This document shows positions 2,592 to 64,000 of a stretch of DNA of 64,000 bases, one piece after another. Each line of letters begins with the position of its first letter. The stretch's first letter is position 1. Location of the stretch: positions 32,048 to 96,047 of the forward strand of contig JBDRLC010000064.1 of NCBI GenBank assembly GCA_043813305.1. Reading direction: 5' to 3'. The notes under the pieces were generated by a model. The model was not told where the DNA came from and did no database searches. It was given only the letters and a program-made list of their open reading frames with translations. The DNA is from Candidatus Omnitrophota bacterium (GTDB taxonomy: Bacteria > Omnitrophota > Gorgyraeia > Gygaellales > Profunditerraquicolaceae). The position numbers were made by a program, and so were the translations under genes.

Positions 2592-2990
2592 ATGAGAAGA
2601 AGCGGTTTTACATTGATCGAGTTGGTTATGGTAATTGTTATCTTAGGTATTCTAGCAGCAGTTGCCGTACCAACATTTTTTAACTTACAGGCTAGTGCTA
2701 AAGAGGCTGCTTGTAAGGGAGCATTAGGAGGGTTGCGTAGCGCCGTTAGCATTTGGTATGCTAATCAGGCAGCCGCAGGTACAGCTGCCCAACCGACTCT
2801 AGTCCAATTAACAGCAACAACCGGCGGTGCTTTGGTCGGAGGGGTAGTTCCTGAGAATCCATATAACAACTCAAGAGTAGTAATAGCGGGGGCTGCAGAA
2901 GCGGCAAGTACCGCTGCTGGCTGGATTTATGATATAAGTACAGGCAGGATTTGGAGTTCAGCAAGCGAAACCCAAGGATCGGGCTGGTAG
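2592..2990 (+). CDS. Major type IV pilin / pseudopilin (prepilin-type N-terminal cleavage/methylation domain)
   Basis: MRRSG|FTLIELVMVIVILGILAAVAVP has Gly-1, Phe+1 and Glu+5. SD GGGAGG. 132 aa with an Ala/Thr/Gly/Ser-rich C-terminal half. Followed by a strong hairpin. Confidence 0.85.
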   Translation: MRRSGFTLIELVMVIVILGILAAVAVPTFFNLQASAKEAACKGALGGLRSAVSIWYANQAAAGTAAQPTLVQLTATTGGALVGGVVPENPYNNSRVVIAGAAEAASTAAGWIYDISTGRIWSSASETQGSGW

Positions 2991-3032
2991 TTATTAGGTA
3001 AAAAGTTACAAGCGTAATTATTTACTCAAAAT

Positions 3033-3083: not shown

Positions 3084-3094
3084 AATGATTAAAT

Positions 3095-7027: not shown

Positions 7028-7046
7028 TATGATACAATAATCTGCT

Positions 7047-8762: not shown

Positions 8763-8774
8763 GAATCTGAGGCT

Positions 8775-9335: not shown

Positions 9336-9337
9336 AT

Positions 9338-15392: not shown

Positions 15393-15997
15393 TGGATTTT
15401 GCTAAAATTTTGACTATAGCCATCAGTATGATCTTCATCAATAATTTTATTCTCTCTAAATTCCTCGGCCTTTGTCCTTTCTTAGGGGTCTCTAAGGAAA
15501 CTAAATCAGCGCTTTCCATGGGGTTTGCAGTGATATTTGTAATGACTATATCCAGTATTATCACCTGGTTGGTATATAACTTTGTATTACTGCGTTTTAA
15601 TATCGGATATTTAAGGACGATTACCTTTATCTTGGTTATTGCCGCATCTGTTCAGTTCATAGAGATAGTGATTAGAAGATATTCTCCTGCTTTGTATAGG
15701 GCTTTAGGGATTTATCTGCCTTTGATTACTACCAATTGCGCTGTTTTGGGTGTGACGATATTAAATATCAATAATTTTTCTAAGGGAGTTTCTTTAGCAG
15801 AGAGTTTTCTTTACTCTACCGCTCAGGCTTTTTTTGCCGGTGTAGGTTTCTTACTGGCGCTGATTATTATGTCAGGGATCCGCGAGCGCCTGGAATTGAT
15901 CGATATACCAAAGAGCCTGCAGGGTATTCCTATAGCTTTTGTGGTTGCCTCGCTGATGAGCCTGGCATTTATGGGATTTAACGGGTTCTCCCGCTAA
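15392..15997 (+). CDS. rnfA: Rnf complex subunit A
   Basis: 201 aa, NqrE/RnfA-type (FLGLCPFLGVS). TAATG overlap with rnfE. Confidence 0.9.
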   Translation: MDFAKILTIAISMIFINNFILSKFLGLCPFLGVSKETKSALSMGFAVIFVMTISSIITWLVYNFVLLRFNIGYLRTITFILVIAASVQFIEIVIRRYSPALYRALGIYLPLITTNCAVLGVTILNINNFSKGVSLAESFLYSTAQAFFAGVGFLLALIIMSGIRERLELIDIPKSLQGIPIAFVVASLMSLAFMGFNGFSR

Positions 15998-16063
15998 ACT
16001 GATTAATTAGCAGGCGGGATCCCGCCATCGAATAAGTGTAGAGTGGCGGGGAGGTTTTAAATC

Positions 16064-16879
16064 ATGGATATATTACCGCCGATTTTAACTTTAACCGGAT
16101 TGGGAGTTGTTTTTGGGGCAGGTCTTGCTCTGGCAGCTAAGAAGTTCTGCGTAACTGCTGATCCCCGTCTGGAAAAAATATATGCTCAACTTCCCGGAGC
16201 AAACTGCGGCGCCTGCGGTAAGCCGGGATGTATCGGATTTGCCGAAGGTTTGATTCAGGGGACTTGTTCTATTGAAGGATGTGTACTAGCTGAGGAAAAA
16301 GTGCGCGAGATGATCGCAGGTGTGTTAGGGGTGGAACATAAAGCAAAATTAAAGAAGGTGGCTGTTCTGCATTGTAATGGAGGGAATAAACGGGCAAAGG
16401 ATAAATTTGAATATAGCGGCATAAGAAGCTGTCTTTCTGCTGATCTTGTTGCAGGAGGGCCGAAGGCCTGTATTTATGGCTGTATAGGATACGCGGATTG
16501 TCAGCGGGTTTGTCCCTTTGGCGCAATTACAATGAGTGCAGAAGGCCTACCGGTGGTTAATGAGGATAAGTGTACTGCCTGCGCTAAGTGTATAGTAGCA
16601 TGCCCTAAGAAACTTTTCAGTTTGGTCTCAGCTGACAAAAATTATCTTGTGCGCTGTAAATCTCTTGATCTGGGGAAAAAAGTAATGCGGGCCTGTTCTG
16701 TTGGATGTATTGCCTGCCGTAAATGTGAGAAGGCCTGTCCGCTTGAGGCAATTAAGATGATTGATAATCTTTCGGTTATTGACTATAATATCTGTGATAA
16801 CCGCGGTGAGTGTTTCAGGGTCTGTCCTACCAAGAGTATTACCAGGAAGGAAAATAAGTTATGGAAGATGCGGGCTTAA
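16064..16879 (+). CDS. rnfB: Rnf complex subunit B (polyferredoxin)
   Basis: 271 aa with an N-terminal membrane helix, LPGANCGACGKPGC, and several 4Fe-4S motifs (CTACAKCIVACP, CIACRKCEKACP, CDNRGECFRVCP). Confidence 0.9.
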   Translation: MDILPPILTLTGLGVVFGAGLALAAKKFCVTADPRLEKIYAQLPGANCGACGKPGCIGFAEGLIQGTCSIEGCVLAEEKVREMIAGVLGVEHKAKLKKVAVLHCNGGNKRAKDKFEYSGIRSCLSADLVAGGPKACIYGCIGYADCQRVCPFGAITMSAEGLPVVNEDKCTACAKCIVACPKKLFSLVSADKNYLVRCKSLDLGKKVMRACSVGCIACRKCEKACPLEAIKMIDNLSVIDYNICDNRGECFRVCPTKSITRKENKLWKMRA

Positions 16880-22007: not shown

Positions 22008-22130
22008 TTGTGTGTGGGTAAGGGTAAGGATGCCGGTTTGGTTTATGGGTAAGGTAGTTGGTGTTTTAACACCTAACCCTAACCCAACCACCAAACCAAC
22101 TTCCTAACCTTAACCCTAACCTTCACACAA
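22008..22130. repeat. Family-C long imperfect palindrome (copy C1), G-rich arm GGGTAAGGGTAAGG / C-rich arm CCTTAACCCTAACC
   Basis: The ends TTGTGTG (22008-14) / CACACAA (22124-30) enclose a hairpin of about 110 nt. About 85-90% identical to 55549-55664 by eye. Confidence 0.75.
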
Positions 22131-22152: not shown

Positions 22153-22229
22153 CGCGGGGTGGAGCAGTCCGGTAGCTCGTTAGGCTCATAACCTAAAGGC
22201 CAGAGGTTCAAATCCTCTCCCCGCAACCA
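22153..22229 (+). tRNA. tRNA-Met (CAU), initiator type
   Basis: CGCGGGG...CCCCGCA-A-CCA with the C1xA72 mismatch and an A11:U24 pair. Anticodon loop CTCATAA. Near-identical in layout to E. coli tRNA-fMet, but the anticodon stem has only two G:C pairs. 77 nt. Confidence 0.85.
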
Positions 22230-53532: not shown

Positions 53533-54519
53533 TTGAGGATAAGAGATACCGAGATCAAAGTGGTAAAGGGGGATATTACGGAATTAGAAGTAGGCGCTAT
53601 TGTGAATGCCGCTAATAATCAATTATTAATGGGTGGAGGAGTGGCCAAAGCAATAAAGAAAAAAGGCGGTAAGGCGATAGAAGAGGAGGCGGTAAGTAAG
53701 GGGCCGATTGAGATTGGAGAGTCTATATTTACCTCAGCAGGGAACCTCAAAGCAAAATACGTGATTCATGCCGCGACTATGGGTGTTCCTGCCTGCCGCC
53801 TGCCTGACGGCAGTCAGGGCAAGGCAGGGATTTTGCAGACCGACGAACTAAAAATCAGGAATTCCTGTAGGAGTTCCTTAAGAATAGCAGAGGACTTAAA
53901 AATTAACTCTATTGCCTTTCCTGCTTTAGGTTGCGGTGTGGGAGGATTCCCGCTTTTGGCCGCAGCGAAAATCATATCCCAGGAGATATTAAAGCACCTG
54001 CGCCAGAAGAAGACAGAATTAAAGGAGATTATTATCTGCCTCTATAATCAAGAGGCCTTTGAAGTATTTAACCGGGGAGTTATCAGCTATATTAATTATA
54101 TGACTGAAAAGCTCCAGAGCGGACCATTTACCACTGTAGACGCTATTATCGAGATTGACAATGGGATTGTATTAGTCCAAAGAAGTAATCCACCTTTTGG
54201 TTGGGCGCTCCCTGGAGGATTTGTTGATTACGGAGAGAGTTTAGAGGACGCTGTTACCAGAGAGACAAAGGAAGAAACAAACTTGGAGATAACTGAGTTA
54301 AAGCAATTCCATACCTATTCTGATCCCCGGCGGGATCCCCGCTTTCATACTATAGGTACTGTATTTATTACTAAAGTCAAAGGTCAGCCAAAAGCAGGTG
54401 ATGATGCCGCTTCTCTTAAGATTGCGAAGATCAGCGAATTAGGGAAGCTGGAATTTGCCTTTGACCATAAACAGATAATAAATGATTATTTAGAATATAA
54501 AAAAAAGGCGATGTTTTAA
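53533..54519 (+). CDS. Macro domain :: Nudix hydrolase fusion (ADP-ribose processing)
   Basis: TTG start. Macro domain: KGDITELEVGAIVNAANN, GGGVAKAI, VIHAA, ALGCGVGGFP. Nudix box: GGFVDYGESLEDAVTRETKEETNL. Has an in-frame GC-rich palindrome at 53788-53829. Confidence 0.85.
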   Translation: MRIRDTEIKVVKGDITELEVGAIVNAANNQLLMGGGVAKAIKKKGGKAIEEEAVSKGPIEIGESIFTSAGNLKAKYVIHAATMGVPACRLPDGSQGKAGILQTDELKIRNSCRSSLRIAEDLKINSIAFPALGCGVGGFPLLAAAKIISQEILKHLRQKKTELKEIIICLYNQEAFEVFNRGVISYINYMTEKLQSGPFTTVDAIIEIDNGIVLVQRSNPPFGWALPGGFVDYGESLEDAVTRETKEETNLEITELKQFHTYSDPRRDPRFHTIGTVFITKVKGQPKAGDDAASLKIAKISELGKLEFAFDHKQIINDYLEYKKKAMF

Positions 54520-54520: not shown

Positions 54521-55540
54521 ATGATCATTAAATTCACCCGGCAATTTTTTATTCTGATGAAGGCAGGGATCCCGCTCCTAAGGACCCTGAAGGTTATTCA
54601 CTCTCAGTTACCAAAGGGCAGATTTAAGAATGATATAGAGAAGGTAATCTTAGGCGTGCAGGAGGGCAGGAGTCTATCGGAGTCTCTGGCTGAGGCTTCG
54701 CGGTTTTTTTCTTTATTTTATATAAATATGATCAAGGCCGCTGAAATTAGCGGCAACTTAGTTGCTATCTCAAAGGAGCTTTCAGATTTTCTCAGTCGGC
54801 AACGCAGGATTACTAAATCCGTTCAGACGGCTTTGATGTATCCGGTCCTGGTTCTGATAGTGGCAATAGTTATATTGATAGTATTGTTTACTTTTATTAT
54901 CCCGGTATTCGTAAGGATCTTTGAGGACCTGGGGGGCAGCCTGCCGCCGGCAACACTATTTCTCATCGGATTAAGCAAATTTACGGTTAATTGGGGCTGG
55001 ACAATATTGCTTACAGGATTTATTATTACATTCTCATTTTTCCTGCTCTCCCGTCAGGCCTCCGGTAAATATATCATTAATCAGATAGCCTGGCGGATAC
55101 CATTATTCGGCAGGGTAACAAAAACAGTCCATATCGCCAGATTCTGCCGGGTGCTGGGAACTCTCCTTTCTTCGGGAGTAAATCTGACCAGTAGCCTGTC
55201 AGTCCTTGAGGACGCAAGTACTTCTGTAATGTTAAGCCGCGCGATCTCTGATATCAGGTTTAAGCTTGAGCAGGGGGATAGTCTTTCAAAGAGCATGAAA
55301 GAGTGCAGTCTTTTCCCTTTGACTTTGGTTGAAATGATCCAGGTCGGTGAAGAGAGCGGAAAGATCTCTGATATGTTTGCGGATGCCGCAGAAGATTACG
55401 AAGAGGAAGTTACTTTTGCCGTAACCGGGTTCCTCTCTGTTCTTGAACCGCTTCTTATCTTAATCATGGGCGGGATTATCGGGTTTATTGTGATTGCGCT
55501 GTTCTTCCCGATCTTTACCATGAGCACTTTGATTAAATAA
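54521..55540 (+). CDS. PilC/GspF-family platform protein, short form (locus 2)
   Basis: 339 aa. It begins directly in the first T2SSF domain (FTRQFFILMKAGIPLLRTL). A second T2SSF domain (ARFCRVLGTLLSSGVNLTSSL) and three TM helices follow. Confidence 0.85.
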   Translation: MIIKFTRQFFILMKAGIPLLRTLKVIHSQLPKGRFKNDIEKVILGVQEGRSLSESLAEASRFFSLFYINMIKAAEISGNLVAISKELSDFLSRQRRITKSVQTALMYPVLVLIVAIVILIVLFTFIIPVFVRIFEDLGGSLPPATLFLIGLSKFTVNWGWTILLTGFIITFSFFLLSRQASGKYIINQIAWRIPLFGRVTKTVHIARFCRVLGTLLSSGVNLTSSLSVLEDASTSVMLSRAISDIRFKLEQGDSLSKSMKECSLFPLTLVEMIQVGEESGKISDMFADAAEDYEEEVTFAVTGFLSVLEPLLILIMGGIIGFIVIALFFPIFTMSTLIK

Positions 55541-55548
55541 TTATGAAA

Positions 55549-55664
55549 AGCTAGTAATTAGGTAAGGGTAAAGATGCCGGTATGGTTGTTAGGTAAGGTA
55601 GTTGGTGAATTTAGACCTAACCCTAACCAAACTACCAAACCGGCTTCCTAACCTTAACCCAGCT
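55549..55664. repeat. Family-C long imperfect palindrome (copy C2)
   Basis: AGGTAAGGGTAAAGATGCCGGTATGGTTGTTAGGTAAGGTAGTTGGTG-loop-GACCTAACCCTAACCAAACTACCAAACCGGCTTCCTAACCTTAACCC, collinear with C1. Confidence 0.75.
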
Positions 55665-55679
55665 ACAAGCAGTTAATAT

Positions 55680-56039
55680 ATGAATAAAAAACACGGATTT
55701 ACTTTAATAGAGATACTGATTGCTTTATTAATCTTCGGCTTGGGGGTAGTGATTTTGTTTAATCTTTTCCCCTTAAGTTTTCAGGCATTTTCTTACAGCC
55801 GGAAATTACAGGATGTTTCTCTTTTGGCGCAGAAGAAATTCGAAGAACTCAAATCAAGCCGGGATCTAACCGAAGTTCAAAGCAGCCAAAAAGACGGGGA
55901 TTTAGAGTGGAGTATTAAGATCGGCCCGGTTGATCCGGGCGGGGACGCTAGTTTGATGTTAGTCGAGTTAAATATAGAATTCGATTTCCAAGGCAAGACG
56001 CATAGTGAAAGATTTGTCACATATTTATCCAATGAATAA
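55680..56039 (+). CDS. Pseudopilin (GspI-like), prepilin-type N-terminus
   Basis: MNKKHG|FTLIEILIALLIFGLGV. 119 aa. Confidence 0.75.
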   Translation: MNKKHGFTLIEILIALLIFGLGVVILFNLFPLSFQAFSYSRKLQDVSLLAQKKFEELKSSRDLTEVQSSQKDGDLEWSIKIGPVDPGGDASLMLVELNIEFDFQGKTHSERFVTYLSNE

Positions 56040-58719
56040 CAGGTCTCAGGCGTTAGTAATCGTAATCAGTTTTCTGGGGATGCTTTCTCTTATCGGAGTT
56101 GCTTTTTTCTCTCTTTCTCAGGCTCAAAGGTCATCCAGCGTCCATGAGCTCAACCGTGTAAAGTCGCTCTACTTAGCCGAAGCAGGCATAAACTATACAA
56201 AGCGCGTTCTAGAGCTGGATAGGCAGGATAACCGTATAGACTCTAAAGCAGATATAATCTTTAAGCACTTTCAGGGTGAAGAAGCGGACCTGAATCATGA
56301 CGGCAAAAAAGAGAGCAAATGGTTCTATGTCCTTGATTCCGAAGGAAAGACCTTTGGCCGCTTCGGAATACGCATACTTGATGAAGCTTCCAAGGTCAAT
56401 GTTAATAGCGTAGAATTATCGACTTTTGATAGACTGCTTTCTCAAGTAGGCATAGAGGGCAAGGAAGCTAGTTCAATATATTCTAAGCGTCCGTTCAGCG
56501 TCATAGAAGAGATAGGTTCAGTCCTGGATAGGGATGAATTCAATAAGCTCGAAGATTTCATCACTATCTATTCCCAGGATAGCGAGGTAGATCTCAATAG
56601 AAACAGAAGACACTATTTAAACTCTTTAAACGTACAGTTGATTCTGGAAGGATTCTTGAGGCAGGGTGTCAAAGATGCCTACCAGAAAGCAGCGATCTTA
56701 AAAGATGCTTCTGATGCGGACCTTAGACAAACGATACTGGATAAATTCCATTCGGGCAGCCTTACTCCTTCCGGCATCTCTGAATCCGGAGGCTGGATAA
56801 ATAGAGGCACTTATTTTGAGGCGCCTGTAGGTGGCAGTTTTGGCAGGTTCATCTGGTCTAATCTAGGGGTAGAGGACGGGGAATATTTCTGTTTTCTATA
56901 CGGCACTGAGAGTTCGGATGTGGTGGGTGAGATAATCGGCGTGCCTATTTTTTCCGGAGAGGGCCTGATTGATAAAGTTATCGTCAGCGGCGGTTCATTT
57001 ACGCTTGATATTACCCCTGCGCAGGATGCAAACAGTAAATTTTCATATATTGATCTGGTGAGTACCTCCCAAAAGAATGGTCTTAAGAAGCAAGTTATCA
57101 CCGGAAGCGAAGGGCTGGTAATAAATGAATTGATGGTTAAACTTATTCAGGAATTAACCGTAGACCTGCCAATAATTGATCCGGGCGAGAGTTTGGCGCA
57201 TACCTTTAGCGATATTCAACCTGGGTTTTATTATTTAAAGGTTTTAGCCAAACAGACCGGAGGCCTTGTCGGAGATGTTACGGTTAAAAATAAAACTGCG
57301 GGGGATTTACGCGATAATGAGTATTTCCCGTATTCTGTAGAAGTCGGACAGGATCAGGAATTAAAATTAATGATTAAAAATAATTCTTATGAGAGTTCCG
57401 GATTAAAAGGGATAAGTCTTTCCCAGCAGCCGGATGCTGAATTTATTGAGATTTTAAATATCACTCCCTCTGAAATCGATTTATCTAATTTTTCCCTGGA
57501 AGTTTACACTGATGATGATCAGCTTGTTGCCGGCTGGCCGGGAATCATTCCTGAAGGAACAAGAATCCAGGCCTACCAGCACCTAGTTTTAAATGTTGAC
57601 GATGCAGATACATCTCTCTCACCGGAAAACTTAAGGAATAATAAGATTTCTTTTAAGCAGAGCTGGCGCTTTAACGGCATAGGTTTAAACTTTCAGGATT
57701 ATTCTGACACTATAGATAAAAGTTTTGACCTTATCCCTGATGGCGGAGGTAAGGTGATTCTAAAAGATGTTTATGGAAAGAGGGTTGATGCCGTGGAATA
57801 TTCAGGCTCTCAGGTGCCTGCTTTTAAAAGTATTGAAAGGCCTGATCCTACGCTTAAAAGTGACCAGGATCAGGATGGCTTATTTGACGGCTGGAATTTC
57901 TCTGAAGATAAAGATAGGGCGACGCCTAAATTGACTAATGAGAATAGTGGAATGTACACTAGGGAGGGGAATAGGTTAGTTAAACACAGTCCCAGCGAAA
58001 TAACGATCTTTAATCGTCCGCTCTTGGGATTAAAGGAAGTAATGGAGCTGCCTACAGGTGAAAGCTGGGAAGAATTCGTGATCTCTGATCTGGCAAGGAT
58101 CTGCGATGCGTACGCTTACGAACTGGATAGTTTTATATTAGACGCTAAACTCCTTGATTCTAAAGGAGATAGAGAAATTATACAAATTAATAATATCTCA
58201 CCGGGTTCTTACTGGCTATCTATAACAGCGGTTGATTCAGAAGCAGCTCAATTCACCGTCTCCTATAAAAAAGATACGCAGGAAGAGTTTCAGCAGCCGT
58301 CTTCTTTAGTTATTTCAGACGGTATAGCTGATTATGGGAAGATAGAGTTGGATGCCGAAGAAGAGTATAATCTACAATTAGAGGTGATTAATACTTTGGG
58401 TAAGAAGCTCAATCTAAATAAGATAATACTTGAGCCTGTAGCCTTTGAACCGGGAAGGATAAATTTAAACACAGCTGAAGCCGAAGTCCTACGAAGCGTG
58501 CTTAATTCGGAACACTTAGTGCTAAAGATTTTAGAGAATAGGCCTCTGGGAGAAGCATTAGGAGTAGGAGAGCTGTTGCTTTTAGATACCGGATTTCTTC
58601 CGCTTTATAATATATTCACCGTAAAATCAGATATATTCGGGATTGAATGCATAGGTGCATATATATCCTTAGAAAAACCCCTGTCCCCGCAAACTATCCG
58701 CTCCGTAATCAGAAGATAG
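56032..58719 (+). CDS. Giant GspK-like minor pseudopilin carrying an embedded lamin-tail-domain (LTD)-like module
   Basis: Preferred start is ATG 56032 (ATGAATAA overlap). GspK-type N-terminus (RSQALVIVISFLGMLSLIGVAFFSL, LYLAEAGI, ILDEASKVNVNS) and C-terminus (GRINLNTAEAEVLRSV...FTVKSDIFGIE). LTD-like motifs in the middle (LVINELM ... EFIEILNITPSEIDLSNFSL ... GGKVILKDVYGKRVDAVEY). Confidence 0.65.
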   Translation: MNNRSQALVIVISFLGMLSLIGVAFFSLSQAQRSSSVHELNRVKSLYLAEAGINYTKRVLELDRQDNRIDSKADIIFKHFQGEEADLNHDGKKESKWFYVLDSEGKTFGRFGIRILDEASKVNVNSVELSTFDRLLSQVGIEGKEASSIYSKRPFSVIEEIGSVLDRDEFNKLEDFITIYSQDSEVDLNRNRRHYLNSLNVQLILEGFLRQGVKDAYQKAAILKDASDADLRQTILDKFHSGSLTPSGISESGGWINRGTYFEAPVGGSFGRFIWSNLGVEDGEYFCFLYGTESSDVVGEIIGVPIFSGEGLIDKVIVSGGSFTLDITPAQDANSKFSYIDLVSTSQKNGLKKQVITGSEGLVINELMVKLIQELTVDLPIIDPGESLAHTFSDIQPGFYYLKVLAKQTGGLVGDVTVKNKTAGDLRDNEYFPYSVEVGQDQELKLMIKNNSYESSGLKGISLSQQPDAEFIEILNITPSEIDLSNFSLEVYTDDDQLVAGWPGIIPEGTRIQAYQHLVLNVDDADTSLSPENLRNNKISFKQSWRFNGIGLNFQDYSDTIDKSFDLIPDGGGKVILKDVYGKRVDAVEYSGSQVPAFKSIERPDPTLKSDQDQDGLFDGWNFSEDKDRATPKLTNENSGMYTREGNRLVKHSPSEITIFNRPLLGLKEVMELPTGESWEEFVISDLARICDAYAYELDSFILDAKLLDSKGDREIIQINNISPGSYWLSITAVDSEAAQFTVSYKKDTQEEFQQPSSLVISDGIADYGKIELDAEEEYNLQLEVINTLGKKLNLNKIILEPVAFEPGRINLNTAEAEVLRSVLNSEHLVLKILENRPLGEALGVGELLLLDTGFLPLYNIFTVKSDIFGIECIGAYISLEKPLSPQTIRSVIRR

Positions 58720-58726
58720 AAAATAC

Positions 58727-58790
58727 TTGACAAACCCTTGCTTTTAGTATCAAATATATACTAATATATACAAAGTATATCAGTATATAT
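58727..58790 (+). promoter_or_regulatory. TTGACA box plus an AT-rich array of short direct/inverted repeats upstream of the MerR-like gene
   Basis: TTGACA at 58727-32. Inverted repeat TAGTAT(58745-50)/ATACTA(58758-63). Direct repeat AATATATAC x2 (58753-61, 58763-71). Inverted repeat ATATAC/GTATAT (58766-80). AGTATAT x2 (58774-80, 58782-88). Confidence 0.4.
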
Positions 58791-58828
58791 AATAACCTAC
58801 CACGCCACGGCAAAAAGGAGGATGAGAT

Positions 58829-59011
58829 ATGGGTAAGTCCATTTATGCTGCGCAGGAAATAGCAGACATCTTGGGCATATCAAAGCAGACCCTCTTGCGC
58901 TACGAGAAGAGAAAGATCTTCCCGCGACCCCGCAGGAATCCGATTAATAAACACCGGGAATATAGTCCCGATGATCTTTCTCGATTGAAAAAAATATTAG
59001 GCAGGGCTTAA
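58829..59011 (+). CDS. MerR-family HTH-only DNA-binding protein
   Basis: 60 aa. AQEIADILGISKQTLLRYEKRKIFPRPRRNPINKHREYSPDDLSRLKKIL matches the MerR N-terminal wHTH pattern (..TLRYYE..GL..P.R...GYR.Y...DL..L..I). No dimerisation or effector region. Confidence 0.7.
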   Translation: MGKSIYAAQEIADILGISKQTLLRYEKRKIFPRPRRNPINKHREYSPDDLSRLKKILGRA

Positions 59012-59021
59012 GAGGAGCGTT

Positions 59022-60440
59022 TTGATGATCTTAGGAGAAAAAAGTATTATCAGTATAGATATTGACGAAGGCGCTTTAACTGCGGCTAAGCTGAGCAAGA
59101 AGAAGAACCTGATCTCTTTAGATGGTTTTAAAAGCGTTAATTCACTAGCACAGCTTGCCGGCGATCCCGCTTTTAAAGGTAAGTCAGTGGTATTGGCATT
59201 CCCTGCTCAAGCCCTGCTCTTTAGAAGTTTCTCAATTGATAGCACATTTCTAAGAGGGCCGGAGCAGAAGAAGAGGATCGATAGTTTTCTCTCGCGTCAA
59301 AATCTTCCCCTGAATCTCGATGATTGTTACTGGCAGACATTTGTCTTAGGCGGCCGTCTTAATCTAATCGCTGCGAAGAAGAAGATAGTCGATAACATTA
59401 TCTTGAGGATACCCGAAGAAGGATTTAATATCGCCGGAGTCATTCCTTCATTTCTGGCTTTATACAATTTAGTCGTTTATAATTATCCGGAAAAGGAAAG
59501 ATTCACTCTCCTGAATTTACGTAATTCTTCAAGCGAACTGCTTATTGTTGAGAAAAAGCAGGTCTGGCTATATCCTTTAGCCGCAGGTAAAGAGCATATC
59601 AAGGAAGATCTAAACAATGAGAATATATTATTTCAGGAGTTAAGGAGGATTCTAAATACCCATTATCTACAGAATCCCTCAGCGGACCCGAAGCCGAATT
59701 CTCTTTACCTGGTAGGAACAGAATATTCCGAGATTTTCAATTCGGTTCTTAAGCAGACCTTTACCAACCACGATTTAATTCCTCTGGAGCCGTTAAAGAA
59801 GATAACTAGCCTGGCGGATAAATCCTTTAGAATTCCGGCTACATTAACCTTAAGTATCGGCTTGGGGCTTAGTTTTCTTTCTGCCGGGGGCCTTGTCTCA
59901 GTTAACCTTTTAAAGGCGAAATTAAAAAAAGATATGATCTTTGTGGGTGAGATTTTACTGGAGAAAACCCTGGTAGGCCTAGGAGGCGTGGTTTTTATTT
60001 TTCTGTTATTCTCAGTGATAAAATCCGCTGTAGTGCTGAAATCTCAAAGTGCGCTCCTTAAGTCTAGTAGGTCTCAGATGGAATCTGCTTTACCACAGGT
60101 AAAGGAACTTAAGAAAAAGAAGGAGGCCCTGGAAGGGTTAACAGATTTCCTGGGGCAGGAGTTAAATCAGCAAACTTTATATCTGAAAGCCTTATCTGCA
60201 ATCTCAGAGAATAAATCACCTAATCTTGTGATCGAGCAGTTTGAAGCAAAGGTAAGGCAGGGAGTGATTGAGGTGTTTCTTTCCGGGAGAGCAGGTAATT
60301 ATGAGGAGATTAATCAGTTTTTAAGTAAGCTTAAAAATAATCAGAGTTTCAGGGAAGTGAAGATGCTTTCTTCGGAATTACCAAGCCGCGAAGCAGCAGT
60401 AGAAGCGGTTGATTTTCAATTATCTTTTAAGGCCGAATGA
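59022..60440 (+). CDS. PilM-like :: PilN-like fusion (locus 2)
   Basis: 472 aa (TTG 59022 or ATG 59025). N-terminal PilM-like region, TM helix (LVGLGGVVFIFLLFSVI), coiled coil and PilN-like C-terminus (VIEVFLSGRAGNYEEINQFLSKLKNN). Confidence 0.6.
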   Translation: MMILGEKSIISIDIDEGALTAAKLSKKKNLISLDGFKSVNSLAQLAGDPAFKGKSVVLAFPAQALLFRSFSIDSTFLRGPEQKKRIDSFLSRQNLPLNLDDCYWQTFVLGGRLNLIAAKKKIVDNIILRIPEEGFNIAGVIPSFLALYNLVVYNYPEKERFTLLNLRNSSSELLIVEKKQVWLYPLAAGKEHIKEDLNNENILFQELRRILNTHYLQNPSADPKPNSLYLVGTEYSEIFNSVLKQTFTNHDLIPLEPLKKITSLADKSFRIPATLTLSIGLGLSFLSAGGLVSVNLLKAKLKKDMIFVGEILLEKTLVGLGGVVFIFLLFSVIKSAVVLKSQSALLKSSRSQMESALPQVKELKKKKEALEGLTDFLGQELNQQTLYLKALSAISENKSPNLVIEQFEAKVRQGVIEVFLSGRAGNYEEINQFLSKLKNNQSFREVKMLSSELPSREAAVEAVDFQLSFKAE

Positions 60441-61507
60441 TGATCTTAAAGGTTTCTGAAAAAACTAAACTGATTACAGGGGGTTGGCTTTTAGCATGCA
60501 TCCTCCTTCTGGTAATAGCTTCAGTTTTGAAGGGGAGGATAAATTTCGTAAAAAGAGAAAACCAGGAGAACCGTTCTTTATTAGACGAGGCCTTACCTGA
60601 TTTTAACGATCAGAGCCCGCAAAAATTAGCTCAAGATATAAAGAATTTAAAATTAAACATTTTAAGCCAGGAGTGCTTATACAGCAGGCAGGATTCATGG
60701 CTTAAAGAGGGTTATGATCCGGGCATATTATTTGCCGAAGACTTAAGCATCATCAACCAATATTTAAAACAGAAAGCCCAGAATAAAAATACGGAATTTG
60801 CCGACATAGAGTTTCTACAAAAAATGCCTTCAGAGCAGGAGGCAGTTTATCTTCTAAGTCAACTCCACGGTTTAAAAGAGATCCTTAATTTGGGTATAGA
60901 ACTGGGCGTAAATTTTGAAGTGATCAAGCCTCAGCCAATCCAGGAGCTAGAGGATGATAAAGGCATTAGGGTAGCAAAGACTTATCTTGAGTTGAGCTGC
61001 CCGAAAGAAACGCTGATTGAATTTTTGATACAGATGAATTATCTTGTCCCAAGGGCGTATTTGGAATTCTTGAGTATAAAGTCGCAAGGTGAGGTTTTTG
61101 ATTTAGTTTTCTCATTTAAAAATATTATTTTAACACTGGATTGGGCTAAGGATGATCTAGGAGAGGAAGCGGCAATTAAATCCCCTGATTCATTGCTTGG
61201 GGCAGGGCAGGGTTATATTTCTGTTTTAAGGGGCAGGAACCCGTTTCATTTAGAAACTCCCAAGATAATCAGCGCTACCGAGGTTAAAGAAGAAGTAAGG
61301 CTTGCTCCTCGATTTCTTTATAAAGGGACGGCTGTTTCAAAAGAGAAAGAGATTGTAGTAATCCAGGATACTATGAGTGAAGAGACGGTTTTTATCGGAC
61401 TTAACGGTAGTTATGGCGATTTTAAGTTAAAGGAGTTTTCCGATCAGACGGCTGTGTTTGAGAACGTCAAGGATAACAGTACAATCATCATAAAAAAGGA
61501 AGAGTGA
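60437..61507 (+). CDS. Bitopic assembly protein, PilO/GspM-like core with PilP-like C-terminal beta segment
   Basis: 356 aa with a TM helix (GGWLLACILLLVIASVL). PilO-like alpha/beta core (AKTYLELSCPKETLIEFLIQMNYL...FLSIKSQGEVFDLVFSF). C-terminal KGTAVSKEKEIVVIQD...VFIGLNGSYGDFKLKEF. The assignment is weak. Confidence 0.4.
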   Translation: MMILKVSEKTKLITGGWLLACILLLVIASVLKGRINFVKRENQENRSLLDEALPDFNDQSPQKLAQDIKNLKLNILSQECLYSRQDSWLKEGYDPGILFAEDLSIINQYLKQKAQNKNTEFADIEFLQKMPSEQEAVYLLSQLHGLKEILNLGIELGVNFEVIKPQPIQELEDDKGIRVAKTYLELSCPKETLIEFLIQMNYLVPRAYLEFLSIKSQGEVFDLVFSFKNIILTLDWAKDDLGEEAAIKSPDSLLGAGQGYISVLRGRNPFHLETPKIISATEVKEEVRLAPRFLYKGTAVSKEKEIVVIQDTMSEETVFIGLNGSYGDFKLKEFSDQTAVFENVKDNSTIIIKKEE

Positions 61508-63582
61508 AAATGAAAAAAGAAAAATTATTTCCGAGAGTGCTGATTGTAGCAATCGCTTCAATGGTTTTGTTATTCGGTAGCTTGGCAGCAGAGTCAGACA
61601 CCTCTGAGAAGATCAACGCTGATATTGACTCATTATATAAAGACTCCCTGAGTTATTATTCCAGTATTCAGTATGAAAATGCCATGGAGGGTTTAGAATT
61701 AATCCTGGCGATACTCGATACTTATCCCGATATTGAAAAGTGGCGGGTAAGTAAGAAGATCGGCCCTTCCAGAGAGGATGTTGTAAGCCTGGTTGAGAAG
61801 ATCAATAAAGAGATGAAAGTAGATTTGACTAAGCGAAAGTTAGAAGTAGTTGATATCGCTAAGGAGCGGGTGAGTACGGATCGTGAGATCGTCAATAGGA
61901 TAAAGCGCCTCTGGAGTAATTCGCGTAAACTCTATGGCCAGGGATTATATGAAGATGCGATAGAAAATTTTGAAGAGATCGTAGAATTAGAAAAGGGCTC
62001 CAGGCTACGATATACATTCCAGGCAAAGGATTATATTGCTCAGGCAAAGGAGAAGTTACTCCAAGCAAAGGAGGAGGATTTATCAAAAGAAGTTGAGATT
62101 AAAGAGAAGGATATGATTGAAGAAGTGCTTAAACAACAGATACCTCCTTATGTAGAACCTCCTTTGCATGTAGAGGAGCAGGAGGTGACTTCTTTGGTAA
62201 GGCCTCCTGAGATCAGAAAGAAACTCAAGGCGACCAAGGTAACTATGGACTTTGATAAAGTAGGGTTAAAATCAGTAATGTCATTCCTTGCTAATGAATC
62301 AGGCGTTAATTTTGTCGCCTCTAGCAGGGTTCTGGAACTGAAACCCGTGGTAAGTACCAGCCTTAAAGACACCAGTATTGAGGAGGCGATAAAATTTATC
62401 ATCAAAAGCTTGAATTTAGTCTATAGGATTGATAAAGAAGTTGTCTGGATTGCGCATCCGGATGAGATAGCAAATGAGCCGATGGAGACCAAAGTTTATT
62501 ATCTGAATAAAGGCGGAGGGCTATTTACGGAGTTCAGTCCGATTACCGGCGGTTCCGCTGACACGGGACTTGGAGGAAGCTCTGCTTCGATTACCAAGAT
62601 AACTACAATAGAAGATACCTTAAAGGAGATAGTTCCCTGGCCTGATGATGCCAAACTGACCTATGATAAGCGCCTTAACGCCCTGATCGTACGCAATACT
62701 CCCCAAAACCTTCAGATGCTTGAAGACATTCTTTATACTTTAGATATCGTGCCTTGTCAGGTGCTTATCGAAGCCCGCTTTATCGAAGTGGATATCACTG
62801 ATACCAAGGAATTGGGCCTGGAGTGGAATCTCAATAGTGATTCGCCTTTTTCGAAGAAAGACGGAACCATGGAGCAGGGAATTCCTGCGGATAGCGGAAT
62901 TGATTTTTCATCCTTTACCAGGGCAGCCGAGGGATTAAACCTTACTTATCAGGGAGTATTAACTAAGCCTCAGTTCCAGATAGTATTACATGCACTGAGT
63001 GAGAAGAAAAAAATAAAGACCTTATCCAGCCCGCGCATCACTACGATGAATAACCAGCTGGCAACGATTAAGGTGGTGGATGAATGGATTTATCCGACAC
63101 GCTATGAATATGAGATCGTGCAATCTGACTTAAACGGGGATGGGGATTTTAGCGATGCAGGCGAGACATCCTATAAGAACGTACCTAAAGATTTTCTCCG
63201 CCGTGACGTGGGCATACTTTTAAAGGTAATCCCGGCGGTAGGTGCTGACAAGAAGACGATAAATCTTTCTCTTATCCCCGAAGTAAGCGAGGCAAGCGCG
63301 GATGCATTTGAATATGCCGGAGACGTATCATTGCCTAAGTTTACCTCGCGTAATCTTTCTACCACCGTAGTAGTAGATAGCGGAGATACGGTGGTATTAG
63401 GAGGCCTGATTAAAGAAAGCCGCACCAATACGGTGACCAAGGTTCCCCTGTTAGGGGATCTTCCTTTTATCGGGAAATTATTTAGAAAAGATGCGGATAG
63501 TATCCAGAGAAAGAACCTTTTGATTTTCGTTACCGCCAAAGTCTTGACATCTTCCGGCGAAGAAGTGGTAATAAACCAATAA
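61504..63582 (+). CDS. Secretin (GspD/PilQ family) with a ~230-aa helical/TPR-like N-terminal extension
   Basis: 692 aa (GTG 61504 or ATG 61510). Signal peptide, N0-like VTMDFDKVGLKSVMSFLANESGVNFVAS, N1-like LNALIVRNTPQNLQMLEDIL, and a secretin core with VPLLGDLPFIGKLFR. Confidence 0.88.
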   Translation: MKMKKEKLFPRVLIVAIASMVLLFGSLAAESDTSEKINADIDSLYKDSLSYYSSIQYENAMEGLELILAILDTYPDIEKWRVSKKIGPSREDVVSLVEKINKEMKVDLTKRKLEVVDIAKERVSTDREIVNRIKRLWSNSRKLYGQGLYEDAIENFEEIVELEKGSRLRYTFQAKDYIAQAKEKLLQAKEEDLSKEVEIKEKDMIEEVLKQQIPPYVEPPLHVEEQEVTSLVRPPEIRKKLKATKVTMDFDKVGLKSVMSFLANESGVNFVASSRVLELKPVVSTSLKDTSIEEAIKFIIKSLNLVYRIDKEVVWIAHPDEIANEPMETKVYYLNKGGGLFTEFSPITGGSADTGLGGSSASITKITTIEDTLKEIVPWPDDAKLTYDKRLNALIVRNTPQNLQMLEDILYTLDIVPCQVLIEARFIEVDITDTKELGLEWNLNSDSPFSKKDGTMEQGIPADSGIDFSSFTRAAEGLNLTYQGVLTKPQFQIVLHALSEKKKIKTLSSPRITTMNNQLATIKVVDEWIYPTRYEYEIVQSDLNGDGDFSDAGETSYKNVPKDFLRRDVGILLKVIPAVGADKKTINLSLIPEVSEASADAFEYAGDVSLPKFTSRNLSTTVVVDSGDTVVLGGLIKESRTNTVTKVPLLGDLPFIGKLFRKDADSIQRKNLLIFVTAKVLTSSGEEVVINQ

Positions 63583-63597
63583 TAAGTAGAGGAAGAG

Positions 63598-64000
63598 ATG
63601 GAACAGATAGGTTTAGAAGAGAGCCTGTTAAAAGCAGGGATAATAAACTCAGAGCAGCTTGAGTCGATAAAACTTGAGAAGGAGCGCAGTTCTGCTTCTA
63701 TCGTCGGGGCAATCCGGCGTCTTAATATTGTCGCTGAAGATATTCTGATTGATTTCCTCGCCCAAAAACTGCATCTGCCAAAATACAGCTTAAAGGATTT
63801 TACTCCTACAGAAGAAATGATCACTATTTTACCTACTGATTTGGTTTGGAAGAAGAAAGTCATCCCTCTCTTTAAAACTAATACCGAGTTAGCTGTAGGG
63901 GTTCTGGATCCATTTGACTTCAGCCTTTTCGAGGAGTTACGTTTGCGCACCGACCTTTTTATCAAGCCGCATTTAGTTAAAGACGAAGAATTGACCCAGG
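63598..64000 (+). CDS. pilB: PilB/GspE-family ATPase, N-terminal (MshEN/T2SSE_N-type) part; 3' end outside the window
   Basis: ATG 63598 behind GAGGAAGAG; the frame is open to the window end. MEQIGLEESLLKAGIINSEQLESIKLE...DILIDFLAQKLHLP...VIPLFKTNTELAVGVLDPFD is typical of the GspE N-terminal domain. Not listed in the ORF track because no stop is reached. Confidence 0.8.
   Translation, partial: MEQIGLEESLLKAGIINSEQLESIKLEKERSSASIVGAIRRLNIVAEDILIDFLAQKLHLPKYSLKDFTPTEEMITILPTDLVWKKKVIPLFKTNTELAVGVLDPFDFSLFEELRLRTDLFIKPHLVKDEELTQ

What the first reader, a model, noticed from the sequence alone, without database searches (positions are those of the whole stretch)
54521..64000. Pilus/secretion locus 2: an atypical T2SS/T4P hybrid with a tip-only pseudopilin set, an internal MerR-type regulator and a TPR-extended secretin
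**Seen:** the gene order is short PilC/GspF, family-C palindrome, one GspI-like pseudopilin, giant GspK-like protein, AT-rich repeat region, MerR HTH-only gene, PilM::PilN-like fusion, PilO/P-like protein, secretin with a ~230-aa helical N-terminal extension, and PilB (N-terminus, continuing beyond the window).

**Known:** GspI, GspJ and GspK form the pseudopilus tip in T2SS. A major pseudopilin (GspG) or pilin and a prepilin peptidase are normally required.

Here there is no G, H or J homologue and no major subunit. Locus 1 has those but lacks a secretin.

**Inference:** either this is a new minimal architecture in which the 896-aa GspK-like protein is the functional payload displayed through the secretin, or it is a split system sharing filament subunits with locus 1.
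Basis: partly seen in the sequence, partly recalled or inferred. Interest (0 to 1): 0.62.

Follow-up and report, generated by a model that had tools for sequence, protein, structure and literature searches.

The report
Omnitrophota pilus/secretion machine with giant tip protein
This is a real, conserved gene cluster of uncultured Omnitrophota bacteria for a pilus-like secretion machine that carries only "tip" subunits, one of them a 900-residue cap with built-in binding-type domains, so it is an unusual variant of a known machine rather than a new kind.

Summary

The organism is a Candidatus Omnitrophota bacterium. The same order recurs in more than 15 related contigs.

The source contig beyond base 64000 could not be retrieved. 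In relatives the ATPase is followed by a GspJ-family pseudopilin, an Ig-like secreted protein of about 500 aa, and often a secreted protein of more than 1,400 aa. No GspG, GspH or prepilin peptidase follows. "No J" is therefore probably a window-edge effect, while "no major subunit in the locus" is a conserved trait.

The high-confidence AlphaFold model of the K protein shows pilin/GspK-like segments at both ends enclosing four β-sandwich domains, one of them a lamin-tail domain.

Best reading: a type IV filament machine whose I-J-K tip displays a built-in adhesin, with the major pilin and peptidase supplied in trans. It is a new variant of a known kind, of moderate interest.

In relatives the J gene carries a conserved T9 frameshift that looks programmed.

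The parts
54521..55540 (+). Short platform protein (GspF/PilC family), 339 aa, two T2SSF domains, lacking the usual N-terminal ~65 residues
   Evidence: Pfam T2SSF 183 bits in 2 stretches. NCBIfam GspF 307 bits against PilC 258 bits, both below the equivalog cut-offs, aligned to GspF 67-401/401. 57-68% identical orthologues of 339-342 aa in relatives.
55542..55678 (+). Intergenic imperfect palindrome (long hairpin) between F and the I-like gene; member of a small repeat family in the window
   Evidence: 57-nt arms, 72% complementary. MFE -47.6 kcal/mol, z -4.28. Related copies at 22045-22112.
55680..56039 (+). GspI/PilV-like minor pseudopilin, 119 aa, class III signal (KKHG|FTLIE)
   Evidence: Pfam N_methyl 36 bits. 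Weak NCBIfam PilV 31 bits and GspI 23 bits, with no GspG hit. Always adjacent to K in relatives. The profile found only N-terminal helix matches in the PDB.
56032..58719 (+). Giant GspK-like tip pseudopilin (895 aa from ATG 56032; 904 aa from GTG 56005). Pilin/GspK-like N- and C-terminal segments enclose four beta-sandwich domains.
   Evidence: NCBIfam GspK E=1.7e-6 at aa 16-153; Pfam T2SSK weak at 819-849. PF03934 is precomputed in about half of the homologues. AF2 pLDDT 89, pTM 0.83. Site (K/R)(G/A)|QAL with no Glu at +5.
57409..57984 (+). Lamin-tail (Ig-like) domain inside K (aa ~469-660)
   Evidence: Pfam LTD E=4.8e-8 at aa 469-600. Foldseek lamin A/C Ig domain: prob 1.00, TM (target) 0.60-0.63.
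58727..58790 (+). Conserved sigma-70-like promoter (TTGACA at 58727-58732), followed by nested palindromes ATATATAC..GTATAT (58754-58790); putative operator of the MerR-like protein
   Evidence: Sequence. The same TTGACA, -10 and (A)AATATATAC-AAA-GTATATCA motif occurs upstream of the MerR gene in L001, L004, L008, L012 and others.
58829..59011 (+). 60-aa MerR-family HTH-only protein, conserved first gene of the second transcription unit
   Evidence: Pfam MerR_1 35.5 bits, above the cut-off. 59-73% identical orthologues at the same position in clades A and B.
59022..60440 (+). PilM-PilN fusion (GspL-like architecture), 472 aa
   Evidence: Pfam PilN 25 bits at aa 406-470. NCBIfam Amuc_1101 PilM-like E=6.8e-12. 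The clade-B orthologue L017:5904-7427 hits PilM_2 (110 bits) and PilN.
60437..61507 (+). PilO/GspM(Amuc_1100-like)-PilP-like fusion, 356 aa: TM helix, coiled coil, ferredoxin-like core, linker, C-terminal beta domain
   Evidence: No Pfam, NCBIfam or PDB sequence hit. AF2 mean pLDDT 60, core 70-92. Foldseek: Amuc_1100 6kny TM 0.64, rmsd 3.4; PilO 5uvr TM 0.71; 3jc8_O; PilP 2lc4 and 3jc8_P. Split into two genes in clade B, with a weak T2SSM_b/PilO hit.
61504..63582 (+). Secretin, 692 aa: signal peptide, ~230-aa helical extension with two TPR-like motifs, then N0(STN)-N1-secretin as in PilQ
   Evidence: Pfam Secretin 137 bits, Secretin_N, STN. PDB: PilQ 4av2 and 6w6m aligned from aa 237-239; GspD only from aa ~382-390. 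NCBIfam GspD 208, Amuc_1098 202 and PilQ 189 bits, all below cut-offs. The extension is a separate gene in L004.
63586..64000 (+). N-terminus (MshEN domain) of the assembly ATPase; probable ATG at 63598; runs off the window
   Evidence: Pfam MshEN 44 bits. 53% identical to the L001 orthologue, which is 551 aa with GspE 571 bits and PilB 559 bits. PDB: PilB 3jc8 413 bits full length; EpsE core 393 bits.
2592..2990 (+). Only GspG/PilA-like major-type pilin in the window (locus 1); candidate in-trans filament subunit
   Evidence: N_methyl. tblastn with E. coli GspG E=1.9e-6. Motif scan.

Best explanation
Locus 2 encodes an Omnitrophota-specific machine of the type IV filament superfamily, intermediate between T2SS and T4aP.

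Components (shown by homology or fold):
- An ATPase (PilB/GspE) and a short platform protein (GspF).
- An inner-membrane/periplasmic alignment complex made of two fusion proteins: PilM-PilN, which has the architecture of GspL, and PilO-PilP, whose PilO part is of the Akkermansia Amuc_1100 type.
- A PilQ-type secretin with a helical N-terminal extension.
- The initiation/tip pseudopilins I and K. J lies just after the ATPase in relatives.

How it most likely works (inferred):
- I, J and K form the tip complex that licenses polymerisation.
- K is a GspK-type cap completed in cis by its own C-terminal beta-hairpin.
- K carries about 650 residues of inserted beta-sandwich domains, one a lamin-tail Ig domain. 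These are pushed through the secretin and act as a surface-exposed binding/adhesion module, consistent with the attached or predatory lifestyles proposed for this phylum.
- The stalk subunit (a GspG/PilA-type pilin such as 2592-2990 of locus 1, or one elsewhere) and the prepilin peptidase are supplied in trans.
- The 60-aa MerR-type HTH binds the conserved palindrome just downstream of the conserved promoter and controls the MerR-MN-OP-secretin-ATPase unit. F-I-K forms a separate upstream unit.
For: - Component identities.
- Gene order F-I-K-MerR-MN-OP-Sec-E is conserved in more than 15 related Omnitrophota contigs. In relatives that extend far enough it continues (TPR membrane protein)-J-Ig-like protein.
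- J is GspJ family: EpsJ 2ret_B E=1.3e-7; Pfam T2SSJ.
- K model: pLDDT 89. N-terminal helix 12-75, strands 104-126, four beta-sandwich domains, HhH helices 826-870, terminal hairpin 877-903. Lamin Ig matches. Class III-like site without Glu5.
- A cis C-terminal beta-strand is the T2SS GspK mode. Large middle inserts are tolerated in the analogous tip subunit CpaL (PMC13533445).
- No G, H or O homologue in any related locus, whereas canonical G-H-I-J-K loci exist in other Omnitrophota.
- Clade C keeps only E-Big-J-F-I-K with no secretin or alignment genes nearby. Trans-supply of parts is therefore normal for this family.
- The K-like N-terminus heads proteins of 2,000-2,950 aa elsewhere, which fits a display scaffold.
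- Promoter and palindrome are conserved.
Against: - No experiment or expression data; no RNA runs were found.
- The window ends inside the ATPase, and the source contig could not be fetched, so J and the downstream genes are inferred from relatives at about 50% identity.
- The GspK assignment rests on sub-threshold HMM hits and on secondary-structure topology. Profile searches against PDB GspK and hhalign with E. coli GspK were negative or weak.
- Whether the terminal hairpin packs onto the N-terminal sheet could not be inspected.
- The binding function of the inserted domains is inferred only from generic beta-sandwich/CBM/tail-fibre-like fold matches with low TM.
- No major pilin has been linked to this machine.
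- The window K has Ser, not Gly/Ala, at the -1 cleavage position.
Confidence: 0.5

Rival explanations
1. It is a genuine type II secretion system. The pseudopilus stays periplasmic, and the machine exports folded, Sec-delivered cargo encoded next to it: the ~500-aa Ig-like protein and the secreted protein of more than 1,400 aa seen after the ATPase and J in relatives. K's inserted domains would serve as the cargo-contacting piston head or a secretin plug, not as a surface adhesin.
For: - F, J and the ATPase score best against the Gsp models. The MN fusion equals the GspL architecture, the OP C-domain is PilP/GspC-HR-like, and no PilT lies in the locus.
- Signal-peptide proteins are conserved next to J and K in all three clades.
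- T2SS-like loci next to giant secreted proteins are reported for Omnitrophota (10.1101/2023.11.21.568195; 10.64898/2026.06.07.730766).
Against: - No GspG, GspH or GspC-PDZ in any locus.
- The secretin has the PilQ-type N0-N1 arrangement, and the ATPase has a PilB/MshE-type N-domain.
- All curated Gsp equivalog cut-offs are missed.
- A 650-residue insert in the cap is unknown in characterised T2SS.
Confidence: 0.25
2. It is half of a split system with locus 1. Locus 1 (ATPase, PilC, pilin, H/I/J/K-like minor pilins, PilMN, PilO) has no secretin and uses the locus 2 secretin. Locus 2 has no major pilin and uses the locus 1 pilin.
For: - Complementary content inside one 64-kb window. The only secretin is at 61504-63582 and the only GspG-like pilin is at 2592-2990.
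- A paralogue of the locus 1 TPR membrane protein sits between the ATPase and J in locus-2-type relatives.
Against: - Each locus has its own ATPase, platform, PilMN and PilO-like proteins, which are only about 29% (F) identical between loci.
- No locus-1-type genes lie within 10 kb of locus-2-type loci in relatives.
- The rest of the genome, which may hold other secretins and pilins, is unseen.
Confidence: 0.15
3. It is a stand-alone "tip-only" machine. No major subunit exists, and the I-J-K complex is the whole filament. The ATPase and platform would drive a single-step extrusion or gating of the giant K through the secretin.
For: Absence of G/H-type genes is conserved across three clades, while I, J, K, E and F are always kept together.
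Against: - All studied type IV filaments need a major subunit to generate a stroke.
- Major pilin genes are often unlinked, and this genome has at least one.
- Absence from a locus is not absence from the genome.
Confidence: 0.1
4. It is a DNA-uptake (competence-type) filament. K's helix-hairpin-helix segment and lamin-tail domain would bind DNA at the tip, as ComZ does in Thermus.
For: - HhH-type T2SSK segment in K; one homologue also carries PF12836.
- F has ComGB-like length, and there are weak ComGE/ComGF hits to I and J.
Against: - The HhH segment is a normal part of GspK.
- No ComEA, ComEC or DprA lies in the locus or in related loci.
- The ComG-family hits cover mainly the N-terminal helix and all fall below their curated cut-offs.
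Confidence: 0.05

Closest known systems
Type II secretion system (Gsp/Eps/Xcp), in particular the GspI-GspJ-GspK pseudopilus tip
   Same: GspF- and GspE-like proteins and a secretin. A GspJ-family pseudopilin in relatives, an I-like pseudopilin, and a K-like cap lacking Glu5 with its own C-terminal strands. A fused PilM-PilN protein, which matches the GspL architecture. No retraction ATPase in the locus.
   Different: No GspG, GspH, GspC-PDZ or GspO in the locus. Every curated Gsp cut-off is missed. The secretin has only N0-N1 plus a helical extension. K is three times normal size, with four inserted beta-sandwich domains. There is an internal MerR-type gene, and J is displaced to the far side of the ATPase.
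Type IVa pilus machine (PilBCMNOPQ with minor pilins/PilY1)
   Same: ATPase with a PilB/MshE-type N-terminal domain. PilM, PilN, PilO and PilP folds. A PilQ-like N0-N1-secretin arrangement. A large tip-associated module analogous to PilY1/PilC.
   Different: PilM-N and PilO-P are fused. The secretin has no AMIN domains. No PilA, PilD or PilT in the locus. The adhesin-like module is built into the K subunit rather than supplied as a separate PilY1 that donates a strand in trans.
Akkermansia muciniphila Amuc_1098-Amuc_1102 pilus-like cluster (PVC-type)
   Same: The core of the OP protein superposes on Amuc_1100 (TM 0.58-0.64). The secretin and MN proteins give their second-best or only NCBIfam hits to the Amuc_1098 and Amuc_1101 families. 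The order PilM-like, PilO-like, secretin is shared.
   Different: Scores are far below the family cut-offs (202 against 750 bits; 45 against 650 bits). That cluster, as I recall it (not checked here), has no K-like giant, no F/E pair and no MerR gene.
Large tip subunits built on a minor-pilin scaffold: CpaL/TadG (Tad pili), MshQ with MshP, ComZ (Thermus)
   Same: An N-terminal minor-pilin-like domain, a large dispensable or functional middle region, and a C-terminal strand that returns to complete the pilin sheet (PMC13533445).
   Different: Different filament subfamily. K here has recognisable GspK segments, and its middle is made of beta-sandwich/LTD domains. None of this has been tested experimentally.
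T2SS-like / T4aP loci already noted in Omnitrophota (West-Roberts et al. 2023 preprint; Seymour et al. 2023)
   Same: The same phylum. gspD/E/F-like genes next to very large secreted proteins. A SurA/Rotamase_2 gene next to the locus in L001. T4aP clusters are reported in nearly all genomes.
   Different: Those papers do not dissect this architecture. The locus they describe includes rcpC (Tad-type) genes, which are not seen here. The I-J-K-only pseudopilin set, the LTD-bearing K, the MerR gene and the J frameshift did not turn up in my keyword look-ups of these two papers, which I did not read in full.

Membership tests
Type II secretion system (T2SS) | Secretin GspD with N0-N1-N2-N3 periplasmic domains | tested here: not met
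   A secretin is present, but only N0 (STN) and one Secretin_N domain were found. GspD structures align only from aa ~382 on, PilQ from aa ~237. TIGR02517 208 bits, below the 351 cut-off.
Type II secretion system (T2SS) | GspE ATPase and GspF platform | tested here: inconclusive
   The best NCBIfam hits are GspE (571 bits, cut-off 630, on the L001 orthologue) and GspF (307 bits, cut-off 424). PilB (559) and PilC (258) are close behind.
Type II secretion system (T2SS) | Major pseudopilin GspG and minor pseudopilin GspH encoded with the system | tested here: not met
   No G/H-like ORF in locus 2 or in more than 20 related loci (motif scan and tblastn). Genome-wide presence could not be tested.
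Type II secretion system (T2SS) | Tip pseudopilins GspI, GspJ, GspK | tested here: inconclusive
   - I: N_methyl plus weak PilV/GspI hits; no globular-domain match.
- J: absent from the window, present in relatives, EpsJ E=1.3e-7.
- K: GspK model 27.8 bits, below the 130 cut-off; T2SSK 15 bits, below 24. The topology is compatible.
Type II secretion system (T2SS) | GspL, GspM, GspC assembly platform and GspO peptidase | tested here: inconclusive
   A GspL-like fused PilM-PilN architecture and a PilO/GspM fold with a PilP/HR-like domain are present. No Gsp model is hit. No peptidase was found in the window or the loci.
Type IVa pilus machine | PilM, PilN, PilO, PilP, PilQ alignment complex | tested here: met
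   All five folds or domains are present, as two fusion proteins plus the secretin.
Type IVa pilus machine | Major pilin PilA, prepilin peptidase PilD and retraction ATPase PilT | tested here: not met
   None in locus 2 or in related loci. A PilA/GspG-like gene exists 52 kb away in locus 1. The rest of the genome is unseen.
Type IVa pilus machine | PilK-type minor pilin completed in trans by the C-terminus of PilY1/PilC | tested here: not met
   There is no PilY1-like gene. K ends in its own conserved beta-hairpin (aa 877-903), the cis mode described for T2SS GspK. Packing of the hairpin was not inspected.
Amuc_1098-1102 pilus-like system (NCBIfam NF042912, NF045709) | Scores above the curated equivalog cut-offs | tested here: not met
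   Secretin 202.5 bits against 750; MN 45 bits against 650. There is a fold match of OP to Amuc_1100. It is a relative, not a member.
MerR family transcription regulators | N-terminal winged HTH plus C-terminal coiled-coil dimerisation/effector domain; operator inside a long -35/-10 spacer | tested here: not met
   The HTH is met (MerR_1 35.5 bits, above 21.6). The protein is only 60 aa with no C-terminal domain. The conserved palindrome lies downstream of the -10, not in the spacer. It is an HTH-only relative.
Lamin tail domain (PF00932) | Ig-like LTD fold | tested here: met
   Pfam 33.8 bits, just under the 34.3 cut-off. PF00932 is precomputed for nearly all homologues. Foldseek matches lamin Ig domains at prob 1.00, TM 0.55-0.63.

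The most novel reading that the evidence does not exclude
The machine has no major subunit at all. E and F drive only the I-J-K complex, so the "filament" is a single tip that thrusts the 650-residue beta-sandwich/LTD module of K through a dedicated secretin, like a harpoon or gate. Supply of J, and hence licensing of assembly, would be set by programmed -1 frameshifting or transcriptional slippage at a conserved T9 run in the J gene.
Probability: 0.1. Interest if true: 0.75.

Novelty: new variant of a known kind. Interest (0 to 1): 0.5.

Why it matters
Omnitrophota are uncultured, mostly ultra-small bacteria suspected of attaching to or preying on other cells. How they make contact is unknown.

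This locus is a conserved, phylum-specific machine in which the cap subunit of a type IV filament has been turned into a large display scaffold. Related caps reach 2,000-2,950 residues. That gives a concrete candidate for the contact organelle and a natural example of cargo built into a GspK-type tip. It bears on the recent model that a terminal beta-strand licenses filament assembly.

The locus also shows how T2SS-like and T4aP-like parts mix in a deep-branching lineage.

Through the T9 site in the J gene of relatives, it offers a possible case of recoding that controls pilus initiation.

Tried and rejected
- **Source contig beyond base 64000.** Exact-protein look-ups for the secretin (two starts), OP and K and exact 71-nt scans of genome and metagenome collections all found nothing.
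- **The contig's own J.** A profile search with J-like proteins returned no protein from a 105,573-bp contig. This is inconclusive, since J may be split there too.
- **Sequence proof that K is GspK.** The K profile against PDB found only a cellulosomal scaffoldin at E=0.05. hhalign against E. coli GspK gave 4% probability.
- **Whole-model Foldseek of K.** Against PDB and viral models it gave only generic multi-beta-sandwich hits with TM ~0.1, apart from the lamin Ig domain. No specific ligand can be named.
- **OP profile against PDB sequences.** Nothing found; only the fold search worked.
- **I profile against PDB.** Only N-terminal helix matches.
- **Expression data.** No RNA runs were found for the J region. 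Runs holding the window hold at most 9% of its words.
- **Rfam.** No structured RNA in the locus.
- **Rejected readings.** Assembly error as the cause of the J frameshift (four further independent assemblies agree). A mis-called start as the cause of the short F (an in-frame stop lies directly upstream).

Full report

- **54521-55540.** Pfam finds two T2SSF domains. NCBIfam aligns the protein to GspF positions 67-401, so only the N-terminal ~65 residues are missing.
- **55680-56039.** A prepilin N_methyl motif (KKHG|FTLIE) in a 119-aa protein.
- **56005-58719.** A lamin-tail domain (aa 469-600) and a weak T2SSK segment (aa 819-849) in the 904-aa ORF. The NCBIfam GspK model matches aa 16-153 at E=1.7e-6, far below its cut-off.
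- **58829-59011.** A MerR_1 HTH in a 60-aa protein.
- **59022-60440.** A PilN domain at the C-terminus of a 472-aa protein, with a weak Amuc_1101 (PilM-like) match.
- **60437-61507.** No family hit.
- **61504-63582.** STN, Secretin_N and Secretin domains in a 692-aa protein.
- **63586 onward.** An MshEN domain in the ORF that runs off the window.
- **F-I spacer.** A long imperfect palindrome: 57-nt arms, -47.6 kcal/mol, z -4.3, with a related copy near 22.1 kb.
- **K-MerR spacer.** AT-rich, with a TTGACA promoter and nested ATATATAC/GTATAT palindromes.
- **Locus 1 (34-9796).** ATPase, PilC, a pilin, a TPR membrane protein, three further N_methyl proteins, a PilX-like protein, a PilM-PilN fusion and two small proteins. 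An MFS gene and an Rnf operon follow. There is no secretin.
- **Uniqueness within the window.** The only secretin and the only GspG-like pilin in the 64 kb are those at 61504 and 2592.

**Origin and relatives.**

- All homologues of the 904-aa protein come from Candidatus Omnitrophota MAGs or metagenomes. The closest is 89% identical, the next 50-55%.
- The source contig (105,573 bp) could not be fetched by exact protein or exact DNA look-ups.
- I therefore collected related loci from genomes and metagenomes and mapped every component by tblastn.

Three arrangements emerge:

| Clade | Example loci | Gene order |
|---|---|---|
| A (window type, more than 15 contigs) | L001, L004/5/53, L007-L014, L043-L053, L074-L076 | F-I-K-MerR-MN-OP-secretin-ATPase; where the contig goes on, (TPR membrane protein)-J-Ig-like ~500-aa secreted protein, then often a secreted protein of more than 1,400 aa |
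| B | L017, L057-L070 | K-Ig-like-MerR-PilMN-PilO-PilP, then two tandem secretins |
| C | L015, L016, L018, L021 | Compact E-Ig-like-J-F-I-K, with no alignment or secretin genes within 10 kb |

- No locus of any clade holds a GspG-, GspH- or prepilin-peptidase-like gene.
- Other Omnitrophota loci (L027, L022, L034) carry canonical G-H-I-J-K sets, some with K proteins of 947-991 aa. The window type is therefore a derived variant that has shed G and H from the locus.

The test asked for additional pseudopilins and a peptidase just downstream.

- It is half met. In relatives a pseudopilin follows the ATPase.
- That pseudopilin is GspJ family. Its profile hits EpsJ at E=1.3e-7, many homologues carry Pfam T2SSJ, and sources call them PulJ.
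- The tip set is therefore most probably I+J+K, and "no J" is a window-edge effect.
- No G, H or peptidase follows in any relative, so the absence of a major subunit from the locus is a conserved property.

**Every ORF.**

*K protein*
- The AlphaFold2 model from a 31-sequence alignment is confident (pLDDT 89, pTM 0.83).
- Layout: a 64-residue N-terminal helix; a small sheet (104-126); helices to 236; four beta-sandwich domains (244-353, 361-473, ~480-660, 708-811); helix-hairpin-helix-like helices (826-870) where Pfam T2SSK matches; and a terminal beta-hairpin (877-903).
- The third sandwich matches lamin Ig domains (prob 1.00, TM 0.55-0.63). Other matches are generic beta-sandwich arrays such as Cry toxins, CDTb receptor-binding domains, CBMs and phage tail fibres, all at low TM.
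- In the family the N-terminus reads (K/R)(G/A)|QAL..V with no Glu at +5, as in GspK. The window protein has Ser at -1.
- Topology: GspK-like ends with about 650 residues inserted.
- Ellison et al. 2026 (PMC13533445) show that PilK-family caps need a final beta-strand. It is supplied in cis in T2SS GspK and in trans by PilY1/PilC in T4aP. Tad CpaL has a pilin-like N-domain, a large dispensable middle and a returning C-terminal strand. K fits that logic in the cis mode.
- This is inferred from secondary structure. I could not inspect the packing.

*OP protein*
- Its model is only moderate (pLDDT 60; core 70-92).
- The core superposes on Akkermansia Amuc_1100 (TM 0.64, rmsd 3.4 Å) and PilO (5uvr, TM 0.71; 3jc8_O). 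The C-terminal beta domain matches PilP (2lc4, 3jc8_P).
- In clade B the two parts are separate genes, one with a weak T2SSM_b/PilO hit.

*MN protein*
- The clade-B orthologue hits PilM_2 and PilN outright. Fused PilM-PilN is the architecture of GspL.

*Secretin*
- It aligns to PilQ structures from its N0 domain onward, but to GspD only from about residue 382.
- Its ~230-residue N-terminal extension contains two copies of a TPR-like motif. The extension is a separate gene in L004 and is much longer in L001 and L013. TPR HMM support is weak.

*ATPase*
- The L001 orthologue matches PilB over its full length (413 bits) and the EpsE core almost equally (393 bits). NCBIfam gives GspE 571 against PilB 559, both under their cut-offs.

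The system is thus a true mosaic of T2SS-like and T4aP-like traits, with its alignment module closest to the PVC-type Amuc_1098-1101 set.

**Regulation.**

- Upstream of the MerR-like gene, relatives share a TTGACA / 17-nt / TAnGAT-type promoter. It is followed by the palindrome (A)AATATATAC-AAA-GTATATCA, which is duplicated and nested in the window at 58754-58790.
- The K-MerR gap is 110 nt in the window and 218-563 nt in relatives.
- I infer two transcription units: F-I-K, and MerR-MN-OP-secretin-ATPase-....
- I also infer that the HTH-only protein acts on this palindrome. The palindrome lies downstream of the -10, so a repressor-type position is more likely than the classic MerR spacer-distortion mechanism.

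**Mechanism and rivals.**

- *Best-supported reading (confidence about 0.5).* A type IV filament machine whose I-J-K initiation complex carries, built into K, a large binding module that is displayed through the secretin. The stalk pilin and the peptidase come from elsewhere. Clade C shows that members of this family routinely rely on unlinked parts. The K-like N-terminus also heads proteins of 2,000-2,950 residues in the 1.8-billion-protein library. About 20 representatives match K end to end, and 86 proteins score E<=1e-30. This fits K as a display scaffold.
- *Main rival (0.25).* A true T2SS that exports the co-encoded Ig-like and very large secreted proteins. This matches published remarks that T2SS-like loci flank giant genes in Omnitrophota.
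- *Split system with locus 1 (0.15).* The content is complementary, but each locus has its own motor and alignment proteins.
- *Tip-only machine with no major subunit (0.1).*
- *DNA uptake (0.05).*

**Known or new.**

- Seymour et al. 2023 (PMC10066038) record T4aP clusters in nearly all Omnitrophota.
- West-Roberts et al. 2023 note a conserved T2SS-like locus near giant genes.
- My literature searches found no paper that describes this architecture, the LTD-bearing K, the internal MerR gene or the I-J-K-only set.
- It fails the curated thresholds of every Gsp, Pil and Amuc family model tested.
- I rate it a new variant of a known kind, of moderate interest.

**Noticed on the way: a T9 frameshift in the J gene of relatives.**

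- In three clade-A lineages (L001; L004/L005/L053; L049) the J gene is interrupted at a T9 run in the codons for Ser-Phe-Phe-(Phe). Reading on in the -1 frame restores a full GspJ-like protein.
- T9 is the consensus in contigs of four further independent runs.
- The downstream -1-frame part has no stop in about 98 codons. It evolves with dN/dS about 0.2-0.36 while dS is at or above 1 between the lineages.
- It is therefore still translated. This points to programmed -1 frameshifting or transcriptional slippage rather than decay.
- Lineages without the T run, or with T8, are in frame.
- Whether the window's own J has this site is unknown.

Noticed in passing
L001:22215-22227; L004:20453-20465 (same in L005:14306-, L053:7420-); L049:9471-9479: The GspJ-like gene after the ATPase is split by a T9 run (Ser-Phe-Phe-Phe codons) in three lineages, and a -1 shift restores the full protein. 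T9 is the DNA consensus in four more independent assemblies. The downstream part is under purifying selection (dN/dS 0.2-0.36, dS>=1). This looks like programmed frameshifting or transcriptional slippage, not a pseudogene.
   Followed up: partly
L004:20801-22384; L047:9749-11260 and 11314-15825; L050:10070-11689 and 11824-16035; L018:6434-7918; L017:3402-5276: A secreted Ig-like (Big_13) protein of about 500-620 aa is always next to J or K in all three clades. In clade A it is followed by a secreted protein of more than 1,400 aa with no Pfam domain. Both are candidate cargo or tip partners of the machine, and both lie beyond the window end.
   Followed up: partly
L017:8752-11253 and 11255-12772 (also L055-L070): Clade B loci carry two tandem secretin genes. 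The first has a long helical N-terminal extension and the second is short.
   Followed up: no
L015:4743-12970; L018:4785-13000; L016; L021: A compact version, E-Ig-like-J-F-I-K, has no alignment-complex or secretin genes within 10 kb. The core module can evidently work with unlinked outer parts.
   Followed up: partly
proteins P0225-P0275 (no loci): The K-like N-terminal pilin segment (profile positions ~2-87) heads proteins of 2,000-2,950 residues. This suggests a wider family of giant tip pseudopilins.
   Followed up: no
window 3095-4585; L001:20260-21840; L012:21442-; L013:20315-21892; L047:7582-9168: A multi-pass membrane protein with C-terminal TPRs sits directly after the pilin gene in locus 1. 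A paralogue (27% identical) sits between the ATPase and J in locus-2-type relatives. The position resembles the pilin-glycosylation accessory genes (tfpO/tfpW type) found after pilA. Only TPRs are detected by Pfam.
   Followed up: no
window 55542-55678 and 22045-22112 (next to tRNA 22153-22226): A GGTAAGG/CCTAACC-rich long palindrome occurs at least twice in the window, once inside the pilus operon and once beside a tRNA gene. It is a small intergenic repeat family of unknown role.
   Followed up: partly
L027:3224-17781; L022:356-12814; L034:8331-12862: Other Omnitrophota loci have the full canonical order E-E-F-G-H-I-J-K-PilMN-O-P-secretin, with K proteins of 673-991 aa. They are useful outgroups, showing that the window type is derived.
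   Followed up: partly
window 53533-54519: A Macro-NUDIX fusion protein ends 2 nt before the start of the F gene and may be co-transcribed with it. In relatives the upstream neighbour differs (M48 peptidase; SurA/Rotamase_2 on the other strand).
   Followed up: no
window 11995-16879: A complete Rnf-type (RnfC-G-D-E-A-B) operon follows locus 1. It is ordinary energy metabolism and is noted only for annotation.
   Followed up: no
L053:18-398: Two tandem copies of the MerR-like HTH gene precede the PilMN gene in one relative.
   Followed up: no
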